Shown in pieces: positions 24,111-63,638 of a stretch of 64,000 nt of DNA. The stretch covers positions 201,376,001 through 201,440,000 of the forward strand of contig OZ024743.1 of NCBI GenBank assembly GCA_964016885.1, written 5' to 3'. Source of the stretch: Eledone cirrhosa (Eukaryota). Under the pieces are notes generated by a model that was given only the letters and a program-made list of their open reading frames with translations, was not told the DNA's origin and made no database searches. Within the stretch, counting starts at the first letter, position 1. Every line of letters starts with the position of its first letter. A program made the position numbers and the translations under genes.

Positions 24111-24223
24111 TGTATATATATATATATATATATATATGGAAAGTTATATTTAAATTGTTGGGTTACAACTAGTAAATATTTATAACTGATATAAAAGCAC
24201 TCGACAAGTATTTGGAGTATATT

Positions 24224-24605
24224 TACGATATTAAATAAATGGAAACTATATTTATAAAACCATATTTATTTCATTATATATATTTCAGGGATATCATATT
24301 AACAATATGCTATGCCTTCCTCAGACAAAATACAATATAGACAGTTTTATAGATAAATAGATTTGACATACCGTACAACATCGACTTGTATTTGAAAAGT
24401 TGAATTGGCAGAATTGACTGCCAATTCAACTTTTCAAATACAAGTCGATGTTGTACGGTATGTCAAATCTATTTATCTATAAAACTGTCTATATTGTATT
24501 TTGTCTGAGGAAGGCATAGCATATTGTTAATATGATATCCCTGAAATATATATAATGAAATAAATATGGTTTTATAAATATAGTTTCCATTTATTTAATA
24601 TCGTA
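24224..24605. repeat. Near-perfect palindrome, 188-bp arms and 6-nt loop, with a hammerhead motif in each arm
   Basis: Arms 24224-24411 and 24418-24605 are reverse complements; centre TTGGCAG-AATTGA-CTGCCAA. Confidence 0.95.
24491..24567 (+). ncRNA. Minimal type I hammerhead ribozyme motif (mirror copy on - at ~24262-24338)
   Basis: Stem I ATATTGTATTTTGT/ATGAAATAAATAT; CTGAGGA 24505-24511; stem II AGG..CATATT/AATATG..CCT; GAAA 24543-24546; T-ATAT-A-TA cleavage triplet. Confidence 0.8.
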
Positions 24606-24630
24606 TATATATATATATATATATATATAT

Positions 24631-25057
24631 GGAGGCACATGGCTTTAAATTTTTGGCCTTTAAATTGTGAAGACAATTTCAGTTGATTGAGTTTTCTTCA
24701 ATATTCATATACTTAGAAAGCAGAACTCTATTTTCTATGTGTGTGCATACTTAGTGGTTAGAGCATTGGGCTTGCAATCGTGAGGTTGTGAATTTAATTC
24801 TTGTATCAAGTGATGCATTGTGTTCTTGAGCAAGACACTTTATTTCACATTGCTCCAATTTTCTCAGATGTAGAAATGAGTTGTGATGTCACTGGTGCCA
24901 GGCTGTATCGGCCATAGCCTTTCCCTTGGGTAACATCAGTGGTGTGAAGAGAAGAGACTGGTCTTCCACAAACAACCTTGCCCAGACTTGTGCCTTTGAG
25001 GGGAGGTCTCTAGGTGCAAATCCCATGGTCACACAAGACAGAAGCAGGGTCATTACC

Positions 25058-25116
<59 letters not shown>

Positions 25117-25352
25117 TGTGAGTTCAATTCTCAGACCAGGTGATGTGTTATTTCCTTGAGCAAGACACTTTATTTTACATTGCTCCAGTTTACTCAGCTG
25201 TAGAAATGAGATGATAGGGACTGCGGTCCATATCATTCCATAGCAAAGTGGTCGTGGAGCATCCAGCTGTAGAAATCAAGCCAGAATCAGTTCCTGTCCC
25301 ACCCTTGCAAGCAGGGAAAAAGCAGACGTAAAATGAAATGATGATGATGATG
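24631..25352 (+). mobile_element. tRNA-derived SINE copies (two, partial or interrupted)
   Basis: A box TAGTGGTTAG, B-box-like GAGTTCAATTC, core TTGAGCAAGACACTTTAT; second copy ends in an RTE-like (ATG)n tail; homologous to 48913-49257. Confidence 0.75.
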
Positions 25353-34519: not shown

Positions 34520-37500
34520 AGTGGTGTTGGTAATGATGATGATGATGGTAATGATAATGATGAGGAGAGCATGGTGTTGGTGATGATGATGATGATGGTA
34601 ATGATGAGGAGAGCATGGTGTTGTTGGTGATGATGATGATGATGGTAATGATGAGGAGAGCATGGTGTTGGTGATGATGATGATGATGATGGTAATGATG
34701 AGGAGAGCATGGTGTTGGTGATGATGATGATGATGGTAATGATGAGGAGAGCATGGTGTTGGTGATGATGATGATGATGGTAATGATGAGGAGAGCATGG
34801 TGTTGTTGGTGATGATGATGATGATGGTAATGATGAGGAGAGCATGGTGTTGGTGATGATGATGATGATGATGGTAATGATGAGGAGAGCATGGTGTTGG
34901 TGATGATGATGATGGTAATGATGAGGAGAGCATGGTGTTAGTGATGATGATGATGATGGTAATGATGAGGAGAGCATGGTGTTGGTGATGATGATGATGA
35001 TGGTAATGATGAGGAGAGCATGGTGTTGGTGATGATGATGATGATGATGGTAATGATGAGGAGAGCATGGTGTTGGTGATGATGATGATGATGGTAATGA
35101 TGAGGAGAGCATGGTGTTGGTGATGATGATGATGATGGTAATGATGAGGAGAGCATGGTGTTGGTGATGATGATGATGATGGTAATGATGAGGAGAGCAT
35201 GGTGTTGTTGGTGATGATGATGATGATGGTAATGATGAGGAGAGCATGGTGTTGGTGATGATGATGATGATGATGGTAATGATGAGGAGAGCATGGTGTT
35301 GGTGATGATGATGATGGTAATGATGAGGAGAGCATGGTGTTAGTGATGATGATGATGATGGTAATGATGAGGAGAGCATGGTGTTGGTGATGATGATGAT
35401 GATGGTAATGATGAGGAGAGCATGGTGTTGGTGATGATGATGATGATGGTAATGATGAGGAGAGCATGGTGTTGGTGATGATGATGATGATGATGGTAAT
35501 GATGAGGAGAGCATGGTGTTGGTGATGATGATGATGGTAATGATGAGGAGAGCATGGTGTTAGTGATGATGATGATGATGGTAATGATGAGGAGAGCATG
35601 GTGTTGGTGATGATGATGATGATGGTAATGATGAGGAGAGCATGGTGTTGGTGATGATGATGATGATGGTAATGATGAGGAGAGCATGGTGTTGGTGATG
35701 ATGATGATGATGATGGTAATGATGAGGAGAGCATGGTGTTGGTGATGATGATGATGATGATGGTAATGATGAGGAGAGCATGGTGTTGGTGATGATGATG
35801 ATGATGGTAATGATGAGGAGAGCATGGTGTTGGTGATGATGATGATGATGGTAATGATGAGGAGAGCATGGTGTTGGTGATGATGATGGTGATGATGATG
35901 GTAATGATGAGGAGAGCATGGTCTTGGTGATGATGATGATGATGGTAATGATGAGGAGAGCATGGTGTTGGAGATGATGATGATGATGATGGTAATGATG
36001 AGGAGAGCATGGTGTTGGTGATGATGATGATGATGGTAATGATGAGGAGAGCATGGTGTTGGTGATGATGATGATGATGGTAATGATGAGGAGAGCATGG
36101 TGTTGGTGATGATGATGGTGATGATGATGGTAATGATGAGGAGAGCATGGTCTTGGTGATGATGATGATGATGGTAATGATGAGGAGAGCATGGTGTTGG
36201 AGATGATGATGATGATGATGGTAATGATGAGGAGAGCATGGTGTTGGTGATGATGATGATGATGGTAATGATGAGGAGAGCATGGTGTTGGTGATGATGA
36301 TGATGATGGTAATGATGAGGAGAGCATGGTGTTGGTGATGATGATGATGATGATGGTAATGATGAGGAGAGCATGGTGTTGGTGATGATGATGATGATGA
36401 TGGTAATGATGAGGAGAGCATGGTGTTGGTGATGATGATGGTGATGGTAATGATGAGGAGAGCATGGTGTTGGTGATGATGATGATGATGATGGTAATGA
36501 TGAGGAGAGCATGGTGTTGGTGATGATGATGATGATGGTAATGATGAGGAGAGCATGGTGTTGGTGATGATGATGGTGATGGTAATGATGAGGAGAGCAT
36601 GGTGTTGGTGATGATGATGGTAATGATAATGATGAGGAGAGCATGGTGTTGGTGATGATGATGATGATGATGGTAATGATGAGGAGAGCATGGTGTTGGT
36701 GATGATGATGATGATGATGGTAATGATGAGGAGAGCATGGTGTTGGTGATGATGATGATGATGATGGTAATGATGAGGAGAGCATAGTGTTGGTGATGAT
36801 GATGATGATGATGGTAATGATGAGGAGAGCATAGTGTTGGTGATGATGATGATGATGGTAATGATGAGGAGAGCATGGTGTTGGTGATGATGATGATGAT
36901 GGTAATGATGAGGAGAGCATGGTGTTGGTGATGATGATGATGATGGTAATGATGAGAAGAGCATGGTGTTGGTGATGATGATGATGATGGTAATGATGAG
37001 GAGAGCATGGTGTTGGTGATGATGATGATGATGATGGTAATGATGAGGAGAGCATAGTGTTGGTGATGATGATGATGATGGTAATGATGAGGAGAGCATG
37101 GTGTTGGTGATGATGATGATGATGGTAATGATGAGGAGAGCATGGTGTTGGTGATGATGATGATGATGGTAATGATGAGGAGAGCATGGTGTTGGTGATG
37201 ATGATGATGATGATGGTAATGATGAGGAGAGCATAGTGTTGGTGATGATGATGATGATGGTAATGATGAGGAGAGCATGGTGTTGGTGATGATGATGATG
37301 ATGGTAATGATGAGGAGAACATGGTGATGATGATGATGATGATGATGGTAATGATGAGGAGAGCATGGTGTTGGTGATGATGATGATGGTAATGATGAGG
37401 AGAGCATGGTGTTGGTGATGATGATGATGATGATGGTAATGATGAGGAGAGCATGGTGTTGGTGATGATGATGATGATGATAATGATGAGGAGAGCATGG

Positions 37501-40500
37501 TGTTGGTGATGATGATGATGATGGTAATGATGAGGAGAGCATGGTGTTGGTGATGATGATGATGATGGTAATGATGAGGAGAGCATGGTGTTGGTGATGA
37601 TGATGATGATGGTAATGATGAGGAGAGCATGGTGTTGGTGATGATGATGATGATGGTAATGATGAGGAGAGCATGGTGTTGGTGATGATGATGATGGTAA
37701 TGATGAGGAGAGCATGGTGTTGGTGATGATGATGATGATGGTAATGATGAGGAGAGCATGGTGTTGGTGATGATGATGATGATGATGGTAATGATGAGGA
37801 GAGCATGGTGTTGGTGATGATGATGATGATGGTAATGATGAGGAGAGCATGGTGTTGGTGATGATGATGATGATGATGGTAATGATGAGGAGAGCATGGT
37901 GTTGGTGATGATGATGATGATGGTAATGATGAGGAGAGCATGGTGTTGGTGATGATGATGATGATGATGGTAATGATGAGGAGAGCATGGTGTTGGTGAT
38001 GATGATGATGATGGTAATGATGAGGAGAGCATGGTGTTGGTGATGATGATGATGATGGTAATGATGAGGAGAGCATGGTGTTGGTGATGATGATGATGAT
38101 GATGGTAATGATGAGGAGAGCATGGTGTTGGTGATGATGATGATGATGGTAATGATGAGGAGAGCATGGTGTTGGTGATGATGATGATGATGATGGTAAT
38201 GATGAGGAGAGCATGGTGTTGGTGATGATGATGATGATGATGGTAATGATGAGGAGAGCATGGTGTTGGTGATGATGATGATGGTAATGATGAGGAGAGC
38301 ATGGTGTTGGTGATGATGATGATGATGGTAATGATGAGGAGAGCATGGTGTTGGTGATGATGATGATGATGGTAATGATGAGGAGAGCATGGTGTTGGTG
38401 ATGATGATGATGATGATGATGGTAATGATGAGGAGAGCATGGTGTTGGTGATGATGATGATGATGATGGTAATGATGAGGAGAGCATGGTGTTGGTGATG
38501 ATGATGATGATGGTAATGATGAGGAGAGCATGGTGTTGGTGATGATGATGATGATGGTAATGATGAGGAGAGCATGGTGTTGGTGATGATGATGATGGTA
38601 ATGATGAGGAGAGCATGGTGTTGGTGATGATGATGATGATGATGGTAATGATGAGGAGAGCATGGTGTTGGTGATGATGATGATGATGGTAATGATGAGG
38701 AGAGCATGGTGTTGGTGATGATGATGATGATGGTAATGATGAGGAGAGCATGGTGTTGGTGATGATGATGATGATGATGATGGTAATGATGAGGAGAGCA
38801 TGGTCTTGGTGATGATGATGATGGTAATGATGAGGAGAGCATGGTGTTGGTGATGATGATGATGATGATGGTAATGATGAGGAGAGCATGGTGTTGGTGA
38901 TGATGATGGTGATGGTAATGATGAGGAGAGCATGGTGTTGGTGATGATGATGATGATGGTAATGATGAGGAGAGCATGGTGTTGGTGATGATGATGATGA
39001 TGATGGTAATGATGAGGAGAGCATGGTGTTGGTGATGATGATGGTGATGATGGTAATGATGAGGAGAGCATGGTGTTGGTGATGATGATGGTGATGGTAA
39101 TGATGAGGAGAGCATGGTGTTGGTGATGATGATGATGATGGTAATGATGAGGAGAGCATGGTGTTGGTGATGATGATGGTGATGGTAATGATGAGGAGAG
39201 CATGGTGTTGGTGATGATGATGATGATGGTAATGATGAGGAGAGCATGGTGTTGGTGATGATGATGATGATGATGGTAATGATGAGGAGAGCATGGTGTT
39301 GGTGATGATGATGGTAATGATAATGATGAGGAGAGCATGGTGTTGGTGATGATGATGATGATGGTAATGATGAGGAGAGCATGGTGTTGGTGATGATGAT
39401 GATGATGGTAATGATGAGGAGAGCATGGTGTTGGTGATGATGATGATGATGATGGTAATGATGAGGAGAGCATGGTGTTGGTGATGATGATGGTAATGAT
39501 AATGATGAGGAGAGCATGGTGTTGGTGATGATGATGATGATGGTAATGATGAGGAGAGCATGGTGTTGGTGATGATGATGATGATGGTAATGATGAGGAG
39601 ACCATGGTGTTGGTGATGATGATGGTGATGGTAATGATGAGGAGAGCATGGTGTTGGTGATGATGATGGTGATGGTAATGATGAGGAGAGCATGGTGTTG
39701 GTGATGATGATGATGATGGTAATGATGAGGAGAGCATGGTGTTGGTGATGATGATGATGATGGTAATGATGAGGAGAGCATGGTGTTGGTGATGATGATG
39801 ATGATGGTAATGATGAGGAGAGCATGGTGTTGGTGATGATGATGGTGATGGTAATGATGAGGAGAGCATGGTGTTGGTGATGATGATGATGATGGTAATG
39901 ATGAGGAGAGCATGGTGTTGGTGATGATGATGATGATGATGGTAATGATGAGGAGAGCATGGTGTTGGTGATGATGATGGTAATGATAATGATGAGGAGA
40001 GCATGGTGTTGGTGATGATGATGATGATGGTAATGATGAGGAGAGCATGGTGTTGGTGATGATGATGATGATGGTAATGATGAGGAGAGCATGGTGTTGG
40101 TGATGATGATGGTGATGGTAATGATGAGGAGAGCATGGTGTTGGTGATGATGATGGTGATGGTAATGATGAGGAGAGCATGGTGTTGGTGATGATGATGA
40201 TGATGATGGTAATGATGAGGAGAGCATGGTGTTGGTGATGATGATGGTAATGATAATGATGAGGAGAGCATGGTGTTGGTGATGATGATGATGATGGTAA
40301 TGATGAGGAGAGCATGGTGTTGGTGATGATGATGATGATGATGGTAATGATGAGGAGAGCATGGTGTTGGTGATGATGATGATGATGATGGTAATGATGA
40401 GGAGAGCATGGTGTTGGTGATGATGATGATGATGATAATGATGAGGAGAGCATGGTGTTGGTGATGATGATGATGATGGTAATGATGAGGAGAGCATGGT

Positions 40501-43410
40501 GTTGGTGATGATGATGATGATGGTAATGATGAGGAGAACATGGTGATGATGATGATGATGGTAATGATGAGGAGAGCATGGTGTTGGTGATGATGATGAT
40601 GATGATGATGGTAATGATGAGGAGAGCATGGTGTTGGTGATGATGATGATGATGATGGTAATGATGTGGGGAGCATGGTGTTGGTGATGATGATGATGAT
40701 GGTAATGATGAGGAGAGCATGGTGTTGGTGATGATGATGATGATGGTAATGATGAGGAGAGCATGGTGTTGGTGATGATGATGATGATGGTAATGATGAG
40801 GAGAGCATGGTGTTGGTGATGATGATGCTGGTAGTAATGATGAGGAGAGCATGGTGTTGGTGATGATGATGATGGTAATGATGAGGAGAGCATGGTGTTG
40901 GTGATGATGATGATGATGATGGTAATGATGAGGAGAGCATGGTGTTGGTGATGATGATGATGATGGTAATGATGAGGAGAGCATGGTGTTGGTGATGATG
41001 ATGATGATGATGGTAATGATGAGGAGAGCATGGTGTTGGTGATGATGATGATGATGATGGTAATGATGAGGAGAGCATGGTGTTGGTGATGATGATGGTG
41101 ATGGTAATGATGAGGAGAGCATGGTGTTGGTGATGATGATGATGATGGTAATGATGAGGAGAGCATGGTGTTGGTGATGATGATGATGATGATGATGGTA
41201 ATGATGAGGAGAGCATGGTGTTGGTGATGATGATGATGATGATGGTAATGATGAGGAGAGCATGGTGTTGGTGATGATGATGATGGTAATGATGAGGAGA
41301 GCATGGTGTTGGTGATGATGATGATGATGGTAATGATGAGGAGAGCATGGTGTTGGTGATGATGATGGTGATGGTAATGATGAGGAGAGCATGGTGTTGG
41401 TGATGATGATGGTGATGGTAATGATGAGGAGAGCATGGTGTTGGTGATGATGATGATGATGATGGTAATGATGAGGAGAGCATAGTGTTGGTGATGATGA
41501 TGATGATGGTAATGATGAGGAGAGCATGGTGTTGGTGATGATGATGATGATGGTAATGATGAGGAGAGCATGGTGTTGGTGATGATGATGATGGTAGTAA
41601 TGATGAGGAGAGCATGGTGTTGGTGATGATGATGATGGTAATGATGAGGAGAGCATGGTGTTGGTGATGATGATGATGATGATGGTAATGATGAGGAGAG
41701 CATAGTGTTGGTGATGATGATGATGATGGTAATGATGAGGAGAGCATGGTGTTGGTGATGATGATGATGATGGTAATGATGAGGAGAGCATGGTGTTGGT
41801 GATGATGATGATGGTAGTAATGATGAGGAGAGCATGGTGTTGGTGATGATGATGATGGTAATGATGAGGAGAGCATGGTGTTGGTGATGATGATGATGAT
41901 GATGGTAATGATGAGGAGAGCATGGTGTTGGTGATGATGATGATGATGGTAATGATGAGGAGAGCATGGTGTTGGTGATGATGATGATGGTAATGATGAG
42001 GGGAGCATGGTGTTGGTGATGATGATGATGATGGTAATGATGAGGAGAGCGTGGTGTTGGTGATGATGATGATGATGGTAATGATGAGGAGAGCATGGTG
42101 TTGGTGATGATGATGATGATGATGGTAATGATGAGGAGAGCATGGTGTTGGTGATGATGATGATGATGGTAATGATGAGGAGAGCATGGTGTTGGTGATG
42201 ATGATGGTGATGGTAATGATGAGGAGAACATGGTGATGATGATGATGATGATGATAATGATGAGGAGAGCATGGTGTTGGTGATGATGATGATGATGGTA
42301 ATGATGAGGAGAGCATGGTGTTGGTGATGATGATGATGATGATGGTAATGATGAGGAGAGCATGGTGTTGGTGATGATGATGATGATGATGGTAATGATG
42401 AGGAGAGCATGGTGTTGGTGATGATGATGATGATGGTAATGATGAGGAGAGCATGGTGTTGGTGATGATGATGATGATGGTAATGATGAGGAGAGCATGG
42501 TGTTGGTGATGATGATGATGATGGTAATGATGAGGAGAGCATGGTGTTGGTGATGATGATGATGATGATGGTAATGATGAGGAGAGCATGGTGTTGGTGA
42601 TGATGATGATGATGATAATGATGAGGAGAGCATGGTGTTGGTGATGATGATGGTGATGGTAATGATGAGGAGAGCATGGTGTTGGTGATGATGATGGTGA
42701 TGGTAATGATGAGGAGAGCATGGTGTTGGTGATGATGATGATGATGATGGTAATGATGAGGAGAGCATGGTGTTGGTGATGATGATGGTGATGGTAATGA
42801 TGAGGAGAGCATGGTGTTGGTGATGATGATGGTGATGATAATGATGAGGAGAGCATGGTGTTGGTGATGATGATGGTGATGGTAATGATGAGGAGAGCAT
42901 GGTGTTGGTGATGATGATGGTGATGGTAATGATGAGGAGAGCATGGTGTTGGTGATGATGATGGTGATGATAATGATGAGGAGAGCATGGTGTTGGTGAT
43001 GATGATGATGATGGTAATGATGAGGAGAGCATGGTCTTGGTGATGATGATGATGATGATGGTAATGATGAGGAGAGCATGGTGCTGGTGATGATGATGGT
43101 GATGGTAATGATAATGATGAGGAGAGCATGGTGTTGGTGATGATGATGATGGTGGTAATGATGAGGAGAGCATGATGTTGGTGATGATGATGATGATGGT
43201 AATGATGAGGAGAGCATGGTGTTGGTGATGATGATGATGATGGTAATGATGAGGAGAGCATGGTGTTGGTGATGATGATGATGGTAATGATGAGGAGAGC
43301 ATGGTGTTGGTGATGATGATGATGATGGTAATGATGAGGAGAGCATGGTGTTGGTGATGATGATGATGGTGGTAATGATGAGGAGAGCATGATGTTGGTG
43401 ATGATGATGG
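34520..43410. repeat. Minisatellite of ~200 units, consensus GAGAGCATGGTGTTGGT(GAT)5GGTAATGATGAG (44 bp, variable GAT number)
   Basis: Read directly; very homogeneous, with units mostly 41, 44, 47 or 50 bp. Confidence 0.97.
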
Positions 43411-44800
43411 TGATGAAGAAGAACATAATGGTGAAGGTGATGATGGTGATGGTGATGAGGAGTGCATGATGGTGATGAAGGTAATGAAGGAAAACAAGTT
43501 GGTGGTGATGATGATAGCAGTGATGAAGATGATGATAATGATGATGATGATGTTGAGGAGGAGGAGAAGATAATGAGGATTAGGATGGTGATGAAGTTAT
43601 TGAAGGACGAGGAGAGAATCATGAGAATTATTTATGCTGATATTGGTGATGATGATGGAGGTGATTATGATGAATATGATGAGGAGGAGAAGGAGGAGGA
43701 AAGGATGAGGAGGGGGAAAAATGATGATGAGGAGGAGGAGGATAAGAAGGAGGAGGAGGAGTAGGAGGAGGGGGAAGTGGGGGAGGAGGGGGGAGGAGCA
43801 GGGCAGCATGATGAGGATTAGGATGATGACAGTGATGATGATGAGGATAAAGTGGATAAGGAAGAGAAGGAGAAGGAGGAGGAGGAGGAGGAGGAGGAGG
43901 AAAATATGATGCAGATTAGGTTGATGAAGAGAATGATGATGACGAGAAGATGGAGGAAGGGGAAGGTAAGATGAGATGAGAATTATGTTGATGATGATGA
44001 TGATGAGGAGAAGGTAGAGGAAGGGGAAGACATAATGAGGATTATGTTGATAATGATGATGAGGAGGAGAAGGTAGAGGAAGGGGAAGACATGATGATGA
44101 TTATGTTGATGATGATGATATAGTTGATAGTGAAGGAGCATGACAACAATGAAGTGTTGAGTTTGTTGTCAAGTAGGAGGACAATAAAAGTAAACCATAG
44201 AAATACCACTGAAAGGTTTCTAAAAGAAATGGAGTGCTAAATAGAGCCCCGTAAAGTCCTCTTATTTACACAGACACACTATATAATACACTATATAACA
44301 CACTAACACACAGACACACTATATAACACACTAACACACAGACACAACACATACACGCATTTACACACACAGTATATAAAACACTAACACAGGCACACTA
44401 CATACACACAGTCACACATGCACACTTTATACACACACTAACACACAGACACACTACATACACACATTTACACATTCACGCACACTATATACACACACTA
44501 ACATACACACTACATACACATTCACACACACATATGCACTACATACACACATACTCACAGACACACTACATACACACATTCACACACACTATATAGACAC
44601 ATTCACACACACACACACAGATACCCACACATACAACAGTATGTGTACACTCATTCACACACACTACATACACATATTTACACCCAGACTACACACACTA
44701 CATACAGTCACTACACACACACACTATACACACTACATACACACACACACACACACGTACAATGCACACAGACACACAAACACATATTCACACACATATT
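43410..44800. repeat. Degenerate (GAT)/(GAG)-rich, then (CA)-rich low-complexity tracts
   Basis: Read directly. Confidence 0.85.
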
Positions 44801-48912: not shown

Positions 48913-49257
48913 GGAGGCACATAGCTTAGTGGTTAGAGCATTGGCTTTGCAATCGAAAGGTTGTGAGTTCAATTCTCAGACTGGGTGATGTGCTGTTTCC
49001 TTGAGCAAGACACTTTATTCCACATTGCTCCAGTTTACTCAGCTGTAGAAATGAGATGATAGGGACTGGGGTCCATATCATTCCACTGCAAAGTGGTCGT
49101 GCAGATGCCACGGCATAAAAGCACCCAGCACTCGCTGTAAATGAGGTTGGTGTTAGGAAGGGCATCCAGCTGTAGAAATTAAGCCAGAATCAGTTCCCGT
49201 CCCACCCTTGCAAGCAGGGAAAAAGCGGACGTAAAATGAAATGATGATGATGATGAT
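48913..49257 (+). mobile_element. Full-length tRNA-head SINE with RTE-derived 3' tail
   Basis: GGAGGCACATAGCTTAGTGGTTAGAGC..GAGTTCAATTC head; 3' part TTAGGAAGGGCATCCAGC..GGACGTAAAATG(ATG)n matches the RTE 3' ends. Confidence 0.8.
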
Positions 49258-58465: not shown

Positions 58466-58819
58466 TAATGTAAAATAAAACAAGTAAGTCAAATATGTAA
58501 AATTTGGTTTCGTTTATTATTATAAATTTACTGCTATATATATTTCAGTGACAGCTATTATTGGCTGTGACCTCTTCAGGCAGTCCAAATTGGTGTGGAA
58601 AAGACAGGTACACATGTTGTTGAAGTGTGTTTCACTCTGTCAATACATCGATATGTCCAGGTCATGGGTGTGTACCTGTCTTTTCCACACCAATTTGGAC
58701 TGGCTGAAGAGGTCACAGCCAATAATAGCTCTCACCGAAATATATATAGCAGTAAATTTATAATTTATAATAAACGAAGCCAAATTTTACATATTTGACT
58801 TACTTATTTTATTTTATTA
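58466..58819. repeat. Inverted repeat (~150-bp arms, 54-nt spacer) with a hammerhead motif in each arm
   Basis: Arms 58466-58614 and 58669-58819 are reverse complements with few mismatches. Confidence 0.93.
58692..58759 (+). ncRNA. Minimal type I hammerhead ribozyme motif (mirror copy on - at ~58525-58591)
   Basis: AATTTGGACTG(G/C) CTGAAGA GGTCACAGC..GCT(C/G)TCAC(C/T) GAAA T ATAT A TA GCAGTAAATT. Confidence 0.8.
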
Positions 58820-62772: not shown

Positions 62773-62968
62773 TTTCTGAATTTGTTTAGCAAGATTCTTT
62801 ATCTGAAATCGTGTGTTGAAACCGATATTGTTATAAATTTATAAGTTTGTAGATTTGTAAATTTATAAATTTATAAATATATAATAAATTGAAGTGAAAG
62901 CAACAGGTGCGTGTGTTTCTTATTGGCAACATGACCCTCCCAAAGTATAACAATATATATATATATAT

Positions 62969-63385
62969 ATTATAATAAAATAACAGGAGGCTGGACTTGT
63001 GTAAATCCTTGAAGGGTTTATTATACTATGATCATTTCAATGACCGGGTTCTGTATGAATCTGGTGATATCACGTATTCGAAATATAATAAATGAATATA
63101 ACAGATAAAGTCCATGGGCTGAAAATCATAGACCTGAGGACGACCGACCATCTAGCATCTTCCACTTTAGCCGGTCACCCTCAAGTGGAAGATGCTAGAT
63201 GGTCGGTCGTCCTCGGGTCTATGATTTTCAGCCCCATGGATTTTATCTGTTACATTCATTTATTATATTTTGAATACCTGATGATATCACCGGATTCATA
63301 TGGAACCCGGTCATTGAAATGATCATAGTATAATAAACCTTTCAAGGATTTACACAAGTCCAGCCTCCTGTTATTTTATTATAAT
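62969..63385. repeat. Inverted repeat (~200-bp arms, 15-nt loop) with a hammerhead motif
   Basis: Centre TCCACTT-TAGCCGGTCACCCTC-AAGTGGA; arms reverse-complementary with some mismatches. Confidence 0.93.
63272..63336 (+). ncRNA. Minimal type I hammerhead ribozyme motif
   Basis: ATAC CTGATGA (63278-63284), stem II ACCGG..CCGGT, GAAA (63316-63319), T GATC A TA GTAT. Confidence 0.8.
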
Positions 63386-63638
63386 AATTAACTCCGTACT
63401 TGCACCCCAACTACACAAACGAAAATGGTTTAGCTGCTTTACGTTGAGCACTCTCTATATTATTACATCAAGATTGACCATACGGAATGACCAACTCTAT
63501 CCAGTGGTGAACCTTCAAACCTAAATAAATATATATATATATATTTATTAAAATAACAGATTAAAGTTTAAGCAAAGAATCGCTGCTTTTACCCTTAACG
63601 GGATCTTCTGAAACTAACAAAGTCAATCTGTACGGTTG

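What the first reader, a model, noticed from the sequence alone, without database searches (positions are those of the whole stretch)
24138..24630. Essentially perfect 382-bp palindrome with a well-formed minimal hammerhead
The 188-bp arms show no mismatch that I could see, around a 6-nt loop, so the unit is very young or homogenised. The hammerhead has a ~13-bp stem I and predicted AUA cleavage after ~24554. A ~86-nt unique tail (24138-24223) lies on the left only, and (TA)n bounds both ends. A transcript would form long dsRNA that competes with ribozyme folding.
Basis: partly seen in the sequence, partly recalled or inferred. Interest (0 to 1): 0.75.

Follow-up and report, generated by a model that had tools for sequence, protein, structure and literature searches.

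The report
Two-ended Penelope retrotransposon stump
This mirror-image sequence is a real, young stump of an abundant Penelope-like jumping gene, a shape already described, likely built when both cut ends of the target DNA copied the start of one RNA; a sister stump carries DNA changes that were likely made by RNA editing of its hairpin and then copied back into the genome.

Summary
The palindrome is real: 188/188-bp arms, 6-nt centre, 86-nt one-sided tail, (TA)n at both ends, one type I hammerhead per strand. It is not a new ribozyme element. It is a 5'-truncated insertion of a 3.8-kb Penelope-like element (PLE) with Hydra-clade motifs, with about 2,800 tail ends in this genome. Inverted pLTR plus one-sided tail is published PLE anatomy, and this scan has noted it in other genomes. 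Perfect arms are ordinary (31 of 47 sampled insertions). Family data favour two target-primed cDNAs from one RNA, starting 86-88 nt apart and running to a fixed 5' end: 24 of 96 arms at risk stop there, either arm can hold that end, often with an extra G as if the cap was copied, and the arms share subfamily variants 185:9. The window's 6-nt centre fits cap-C, a snap-back and a 1-nt join (inferred). The hammerhead covaries in relatives but is dimer-type and would be buried in read-through RNA. Best side result: 16 copies of a sister palindrome, carried inside another element, have about 30 A>G changes confined to the paired arms, in nested sets, a likely heritable ADAR imprint. No RNA data or reads across this apex were available.

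The parts
24113..24137 (.). (TA)n target, left side; likely primer of the tail-bearing arm
   Evidence: 90 of 90 parsed outer tail ends abut TA-rich DNA
24138..24223 (-). PLE 'tail', 86 nt: sequence between the two fixed start points; in tandem copies it runs on into the ORF start
   Evidence: same role described in PMC11167929
24224..24411 (-). Arm A: pLTR of the element, sense on the minus strand, continuous with the tail
   Evidence: 99.6% to unit L036
24260..24340 (-). Type I hammerhead, mirror copy (core at 24324; predicted cleavage after 24275)
   Evidence: mirror of the plus-strand motif
24412..24417 (.). Head-to-head joint. A24417 is the fixed 5' end of the family; G24416 likely copies the RNA cap; 24412-24415 likely a snap-back addition; G24411 a 1-nt overlap
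   Evidence: sequence directly; interpretation inferred
24418..24605 (+). Arm B: inverted, tail-less pLTR ending at the family's second fixed point
   Evidence: 2,380 exact matches to this end; 64 of 71 second arms end here
24489..24569 (+). Type I hammerhead: stem I 24489-24504/24555-24569, core 24505-24511, stem II 24512-24542, GAAA 24543-24546, self-complementary helix III 24546-24553, predicted cleavage after 24554
24604..24630 (.). (TA)n target, right side; likely primer of the tail-less arm

Best explanation
The palindrome is a 5'-truncated insertion of a young Penelope-like retrotransposon with Hydra-clade motifs, made of a tail-bearing end joined head-to-head to a tail-less end inside a (TA)n repeat, and it was likely built by two target-primed cDNAs copied from one RNA and then end-joined. 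Shown: family identity, two fixed outer ends, a fixed inner stop, shared variants between arms, a different joint at most loci. Inferred: the element's GIY-YIG nuclease cuts both strands of (TA)n; each 3' end primes reverse transcription at one of two sites 86-88 nt apart; both cDNAs run to the capped 5' end of a transcript that starts inside the pLTR; the cDNA ends are joined by microhomology with short snap-back additions. The hammerhead is a passenger of the pLTR that likely needs a partner copy or the element's protein to cleave, and would be sequestered in any read-through hairpin.
For: Parent: a 3,801-bp unit with a 737-aa ORF; its fold matches telomerase RT best (E 6.8e-9); motifs RWR, DKT, YRDD, CxCX5C, IIY..YVG, CxxC, no CCHH, as defined for Hydra in PMC8557442. 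Census of the first 100 tail ends on contig C1: 8 tandem-internal, 2 unparsed, 90 parsed; 71 have an adjacent inverted arm and 64 of those end at site 2. The tail-less arm reaches more than 30 nt further 5' than the tail arm in 32 of 64, the reverse in 16, so it is not simply a copy of the tail arm. Arms share subfamily variants 185:9 and pass the inner stop together (22/2/7/33, p=5e-9): one template. Inner stop: 24 of 96 arms at risk end in one 12-nt bin against 1-7% in the 14 bins before it; exact matches fall from 449 to 270 across 8 nt. The exact 5' end is held by the tail-less arm in 48 and by the tail arm in 33 of 85 rows (77 loci); in 9 rows the tail-less arm holds it while the tail arm is cut 35-230 nt shorter. 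The base before that end is G in 49 and A in 51 of the first 100 of 201 listed (hand count), including direct joins to (TA)n. 25 loci turn at this point with 20 different joints (hand count). In vitro a PLE protein cuts and extends both strands and starts at two internal sites that bound the tail (PMC11167929).
Against: No RNA evidence for the start site, the cap or cleavage. The stop lies just before a U-rich tract, and 8 of 72 arms end in the next bin, so RT stalling could contribute. The G excess can partly come from joints chosen by microhomology; T before the same motif is also common (127 matches, partly a genomic variant and the 16 passenger copies). Unequal arms could arise later by deletion at the centre of a longer hairpin. 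19 of 90 parsed ends had no adjacent second arm and 7 of 71 second arms ended elsewhere. The census holds a few non-independent rows (both ends of one insertion; passenger copies L111, L151, L152). The shared-template result fits fold-back models as well. Pfam named no RT or GIY-YIG domain in 3 of 3 ORFs; clade placement rests on motifs, not on a tree.
Confidence: 0.72

Rival explanations
1. Same element, but the second arm is made by fold-back (self-priming) of one cDNA or of an antisense RNA, then trimmed by the nuclease at site 2, with later deletions at the centre.
For: Published reading for PLE inverted joints (PMC3846280 Discussion; tail ascribed to nuclease resolution in PMC8557442). 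Arms share one template. A recurrent joint with a 5-nt loop is a plausible snap-back hairpin.
Against: The tail-less arm is longer in 32 of 64 and holds the intact 5' end, with the extra G, as often as the tail arm. The same recurrent joint occurs in both polarities. Joints with 1 nt between arms (4 of 25 loci) cannot be folded within one strand.
Confidence: 0.18
2. A self-contained hairpin ribozyme element (MITE- or retrozyme-like) that is copied as a 470-bp unit.
For: 25 loci share the turning point. One sister palindrome was recopied 16 times.
Against: Those 25 loci have 20 different joints and the window's joint occurs once. The 16 recopied ones keep their flanks and ride inside a larger element. 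Most family members run on into the 3' UTR and ORF.
Confidence: 0.04
3. Assembly or library fold-back artefact.
For: No contig of 4 runs bridged this apex.
Against: The two flanks differ and the tail is one-sided. The layout recurs with fixed ends at scores of loci. Short-read contigs hold two sister joints, one a palindromic apex (loose ends, matching L062 and L166), though these runs may be the assembly's own sample.
Confidence: 0.03
4. A host-functional locus: a regulatory hairpin RNA or ribozyme switch.
For: Read-through would give a 188-bp duplex; a sister copy shows that such duplexes form.
Against: The copy is 99.6% identical to a mobile unit, sits among SINE-like and simple repeats, and its own arms show no editing-type difference. 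No evidence of transcription or conservation at this site.
Confidence: 0.03

Closest known systems
Hydra clade of endonuclease-bearing Penelope-like elements (Craig et al. 2021, PMC8557442; includes Hydra-1_Obim)
   Same: Single ORF, RT then C-terminal GIY-YIG; RWK-like, DKT, CxCX5C, CxxC and CxH motifs; no CCHH; hammerhead near the 3' end; (TA)n targets. The supplement's Hydra-1_Obim protein shows the same motif order by eye.
   Different: A different family: other hammerhead sequence, 3.8-kb unit with a long 3' UTR (theirs mostly under 3 kb; Hydra-1_Obim 2,507 bp, 'no pLTR'), 86-nt tail, thousands of young copies.
Inverted pLTR plus one-sided tail of EN+ PLEs (Pen2a_Av, PMC3846280; Fig. 2 legend of PMC8557442)
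   Same: Head-to-head inverted 5'-truncated copy, tail at one end only, Inr-like TCACT in the pLTR.
   Different: Tail 86 nt rather than 30-40; no target duplication readable in (TA)n; those papers invoke self-priming or nuclease resolution, whereas this family's ends favour two primed cDNAs.
Minimal and palindromic-helix-III hammerheads of metazoan PLEs (Cervera and De la Pena 2014, PMC4209133)
   Same: Type I, long helix II, self-complementary helix III; that paper already reports dual motifs 100-700 bp apart on opposite strands.
   Different: Longer stem I; A-U at 10.1-11.1; activity untested here.
Poseidon PAc of Anolis in vitro (Frangieh et al. 2024, PMC11167929)
   Same: Two internal RT start sites bounding the tail, cleavage and extension of both strands of AT-rich DNA, protein-assisted hammerhead not needed for insertion.
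   Different: Other clade; the hammerhead overlaps the ORF start there but lies upstream of it here; the parts read (1-2 of 4) do not link two-strand priming to inverted insertions.
LINE-1 twin priming (recalled, not from a call)
   Same: Both target ends prime on one RNA and the cDNAs are joined by microhomology.
   Different: In L1 the second primer anneals at a variable site and the two pieces do not overlap; here both starts are fixed and the arms overlap, giving a palindrome.

Membership tests
EN+ Penelope-like element | Single ORF with telomerase-like RT | tested here: met
   Intact ORFs in L032, L036, L037; YRDD core; top fold match TERT. Pfam silent.
EN+ Penelope-like element | C-terminal GIY-YIG endonuclease | tested here: met
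   IIY...YVG at 616-633 with Y618, Y631, G633, R642, E701, N713 invariant in 60 homologues; by motif, no profile hit.
EN+ Penelope-like element | pLTRs from partial tandems, with inverted 5'-truncated copy | tested here: met
   Tandems at 3,801-bp spacing; 71 of 90 ends with inverted arm.
EN+ Penelope-like element | One-sided tail that equals the start of the next unit | tested here: met
   Tail runs into the ORF start in L032, L036, L037, L048; 86 nt, longer than the published 30-40.
EN+ Penelope-like element | Target-site duplication | tested here: inconclusive
   Both ends lie in (TA)n, so none can be read.
Hydra clade | RWK motif, DKG changed to DKT, GxKF/Y not conserved | tested here: met
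   RWR at 37-39, DKT at 118; the only GxKF lies after RWR, not at the N-terminal place.
Hydra clade | CxCX5C linker, no CCHH, CxxC and CxH beside the conserved E and N | tested here: met
   CxCX5C at 597, CxxC at 695, CKH after N713 read from the translation, one Cys only between IIY and YVG.
Hydra clade | (TA)n insertion preference and hammerhead | tested here: met
   90 of 90.
Hydra clade | Placement in the RT tree with published Hydra families | not tested
   No tree built; resemblance to Hydra-1_Obim judged by eye from the supplement.
Type I hammerhead ribozyme | Core CUGANGA / GAAA / NUH with three helices | tested here: met
   Core kept in about 100 family arms with N7 free (G 53, A 44, T 2); 9 of 30 pairs with two-sided change, 8 in stem II, 0 of 500 shuffles (30 related rows chosen for divergence, so relatedness inflates this).
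Type I hammerhead ribozyme | G10.1-C11.1 pair | tested here: not met
   A-U in 24 of 30 rows; alternatively an unpaired A then G-C with an extra U.
Type I hammerhead ribozyme | Self-cleavage | not testable with these tools
   No RNA reads; helix III probability 0.004 as monomer.
Non-LTR retrozyme | Non-coding tandem monomers each with a hammerhead | tested here: not met
   One motif per strand, no tandem array; parent codes for its own RT; definition from bioRxiv 10.64898/2026.07.22.740005.

The most novel reading that the evidence does not exclude
PLEs integrate by paired priming on one capped RNA: two RT subunits start at fixed sites, the upstream one leading, and copies begun in the first pLTR give a strong-stop palindrome that records the transcription start and cap. 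These hairpins are then germline ADAR substrates, and when one rides in another retroelement the edits are written back into DNA round after round, destroying the ribozyme core: a heritable record of RNA editing.
Probability: 0.5. Interest if true: 0.65.

Novelty: new member of a known kind. Interest (0 to 1): 0.4.

Why it matters
The locus itself is ordinary. The family matters because how PLEs make inverted repeats and tails is named as open in PMC8557442 and PMC11167929, and thousands of young copies with an intact ORF give exact, testable start and stop points. The edited sister lineage is direct DNA evidence that such palindromes were transcribed as hairpins in the germline and that A-to-I type changes can become heritable through retrotransposition.

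Tried and rejected
Rfam: no hammerhead match at gathering score or E<=10. Pfam: no RT or GIY-YIG hit in 3 of 3 ORFs; one weak zf-RVT hit below cut-off. PDB by sequence: nothing meaningful. Sequencing runs: no RNA holder listed. Contigs of 4 runs, one study, did not bridge this apex and had no cover at 24624-24711; a hole proves nothing. The ranked DNA search scored 40 of 800 candidates and is biased to full-length matches, so counts come from pattern searches and the positional census. Two rows (L111, L152) gave own-arm divergence near 0.3, partly from editing and partly from misalignment; they were kept in that count and left out of the control. The last step timed out and was redone. A DPE-like RGWYV lies at +27 from the inferred start, one base off the usual place (consensus recalled); too weak to count. 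ADAR neighbour preference was weak: G before 2 of 44 changed and 7 of 41 unchanged sites. Literature searches for two-strand priming as the origin of PLE inverted repeats and for ADAR-edited genomic retrocopies listed nothing on point; the library lacks most subscription papers, so this does not show they are unpublished. Supplements of PMC11167929 and PMC3846280 were not read.

Full report
Observation. The arms 24224-24411 and 24418-24605 are perfect complements around AATTGA. The 86-nt tail is on the left only and (TA)n bounds both ends. A hammerhead core starts at 24505 on the plus strand and at 24324 on the minus strand. Stem I has 15 bp with one bulge, stem II is long, helix III is a 2-bp stem within a self-complementary 8-mer, and cleavage is predicted after 24554. 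Rfam does not detect it.

What it is. The left 274 nt match many loci at 99-100%. Longer stretches show a 3,801-bp unit with one 737-aa ORF, in partial tandems where the tail runs into the ORF start. The window arm differs from that unit at 1 of 274 nt. Three held loci have an intact ORF. The predicted fold (pLDDT 89) matches telomerase RT best, and the motifs are those given for the Hydra clade of Penelope-like elements. Named homologues are from Argonauta and an octopus Hydra family is listed in the paper's supplement, so the host is likely an octopod (inference). The genome has 2,809 exact tail-end and 2,380 exact tail-less-end matches. Inverted pLTR with a one-sided tail is published PLE anatomy, and paired hammerheads on opposite strands 100-700 bp apart were reported in 2014. 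Two more such hairpins of other families lie in this window.

Census. I took the first 100 of 2,809 tail ends by position on contig C1. Eight were internal to tandems and two were not parsed. Of 90, all abut TA-rich DNA, 71 have an adjacent inverted arm, and 64 of these end at the same second site as the window's right arm. Nineteen had no adjacent second arm. The tail-less arm reaches more than 30 nt further 5' in 32, the tail arm in 16, and 16 are within 30 nt. Median divergence between arms is 0.5% against a mean of 4.7% between loci, and subfamily variants are shared by both arms 185 times against 9 (49 loci). Over the hammerhead region 31 of 47 insertions have identical arms, so the window's perfection needs no homogenisation.

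Inner stop. Of 96 arms reaching the 12-nt bin that holds the window's centre, 24 end there; the 14 bins before it lose 1-7% each and the next bin 8 of 72. Genome-wide, 449 exact matches reach the point and 270 read 8 nt beyond. The two arms pass the stop together (22 both, 33 neither, 2 and 7 discordant), so they share a template. Sense sequence there reads TCACT, the initiator-like word noted in a rotifer pLTR, and Drosophila Penelope has an internal promoter. Twenty-five loci turn here with 20 different joints. Among 85 rows from 77 loci that keep the exact end, it is on the tail-less arm in 48, the tail arm in 33 and unclear in 4. The base before it is G in 49 and A in 51 of the first 100 of 201 listed (hand count), high for AT-rich DNA and as expected if the cap was copied; T is also common (127), partly for other reasons.

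Mechanism. Shown: two fixed outer ends, one fixed inner stop, one template, arms that are not copies of each other, joints with short overlaps or templated additions. Inferred: both strands of a cut (TA)n prime cDNA on one RNA at sites 86-88 nt apart; copies begun in the first pLTR run to the capped 5' end; the ends are joined. In the window the tail-less cDNA would end at the RNA's first base plus a cap-derived C, snap back to add five bases from its own sequence and pair its last C with the last G of the other arm, which accounts for every base of the centre. A PLE protein cuts and extends both strands and starts at two sites bounding the tail in vitro. The published alternative is self-priming; it handles the shared template but not a longer or end-holding tail-less arm without later central deletion, which I cannot exclude.

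Ribozyme. The core is kept across about 100 arms with only N7 free, and related families show compensatory changes, mainly in stem II (rows are related and chosen for divergence). It is dimer-type: minimal PLE motifs did not cleave as monomers and the Anolis one needs the protein and is dispensable for insertion. On either strand a read-through RNA makes the antisense arm first, and the duplex (-315 or -311 kcal/mol) outweighs the ribozyme fold (-11). Activity at this locus is unlikely unless the internal promoter fires outward; untested.

Edited sister lineage. One asymmetric palindrome of the same family occurs in 16 copies with the same joint and shared flanks, inside the 3' part of another element that has a similar nuclease-like ORF end (read by eye). 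In the 15 copies with both arms, arm differences are 211 G-for-A on the tail arm and 274 C-for-T on the other, against 9 others; both classes are A>G on one transcript strand. The unpaired loop and tail lack this excess. Control insertions have 1 and 2 such differences in 47 loci. Most sites are shared by all copies, which is one inherited event, and some by subsets (for example four sites in L235, L236, L239, L241), which suggests repeated rounds. Two changes hit the GAAA core. This is the ADAR pattern (established knowledge; no RNA seen).

Artefact check. Flanks differ, the layout recurs with fixed ends, and short-read contigs hold two sister joints, but nothing bridged this apex and no RNA run was listed.

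Prior notes and papers. This scan reported the same architecture and the twin-priming idea in other genomes and other families of this genome, after I had written that reading down; these notes are not independent support. No note matched this sequence or the editing. Papers seen: PMC8557442 passages, section 11 and supplement rows; PMC11167929 parts 1-2 of 4; PMC3846280 part 1, passages and Discussion; PMC4209133 parts 1-2 of 4; PMC2377424 passages; bioRxiv 10.64898/2026.07.22.740005 part 1 of 5.

Verdict. Real, young, and a new member of a known kind. Identity about 0.95; paired priming about 0.7; interest 0.4, carried by the family-level mechanism and the edited lineage.

Noticed in passing
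L226-L241 (for example G000:C1:83202412, C1:147537504, C3:251803401): 16 copies of one asymmetric palindrome of this family, riding in another element, with about 14 A>G and 18 T>C changes per copy confined to the paired arms and in nested sets: likely ADAR editing written back into DNA.
   Followed up: partly
window 58471-58816: Second head-to-head hairpin with a hammerhead core on each strand (58579 -, 58704 +), another family, arms 96-97% alike.
   Followed up: no
window 62968-63386: Third hairpin with a hammerhead core at 63278 (+), another family, arms 92-96% alike.
   Followed up: no
window 34537-43415: 8.9-kb satellite of a 44-bp unit, about 198 copies, 93% matches, GC skew 0.89.
   Followed up: no
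window 24740-24883, 25113-25213, 48920-48983: tRNA-like SINE heads; the last scores as tRNA in Rfam at 30.6 bits.
   Followed up: no
L059 (G000:C4:62316502) and L004, L082/L083: Exceptions to the one-tail rule: L059 has two tail-less arms; L004 and L083 show tail ends facing both ways, as nested or tandem insertions.
   Followed up: no
L001, L020, L030, L033: Long insertions with the same layout: a 3' piece joined to an inverted piece holding most of the ORF, flanked by the two end types.
   Followed up: partly
L057, L124, L139, L145, L201, L218: Joints with repeated templated additions of 13-80 nt or more copied from the arm ends, like synthesis-dependent end joining.
   Followed up: partly
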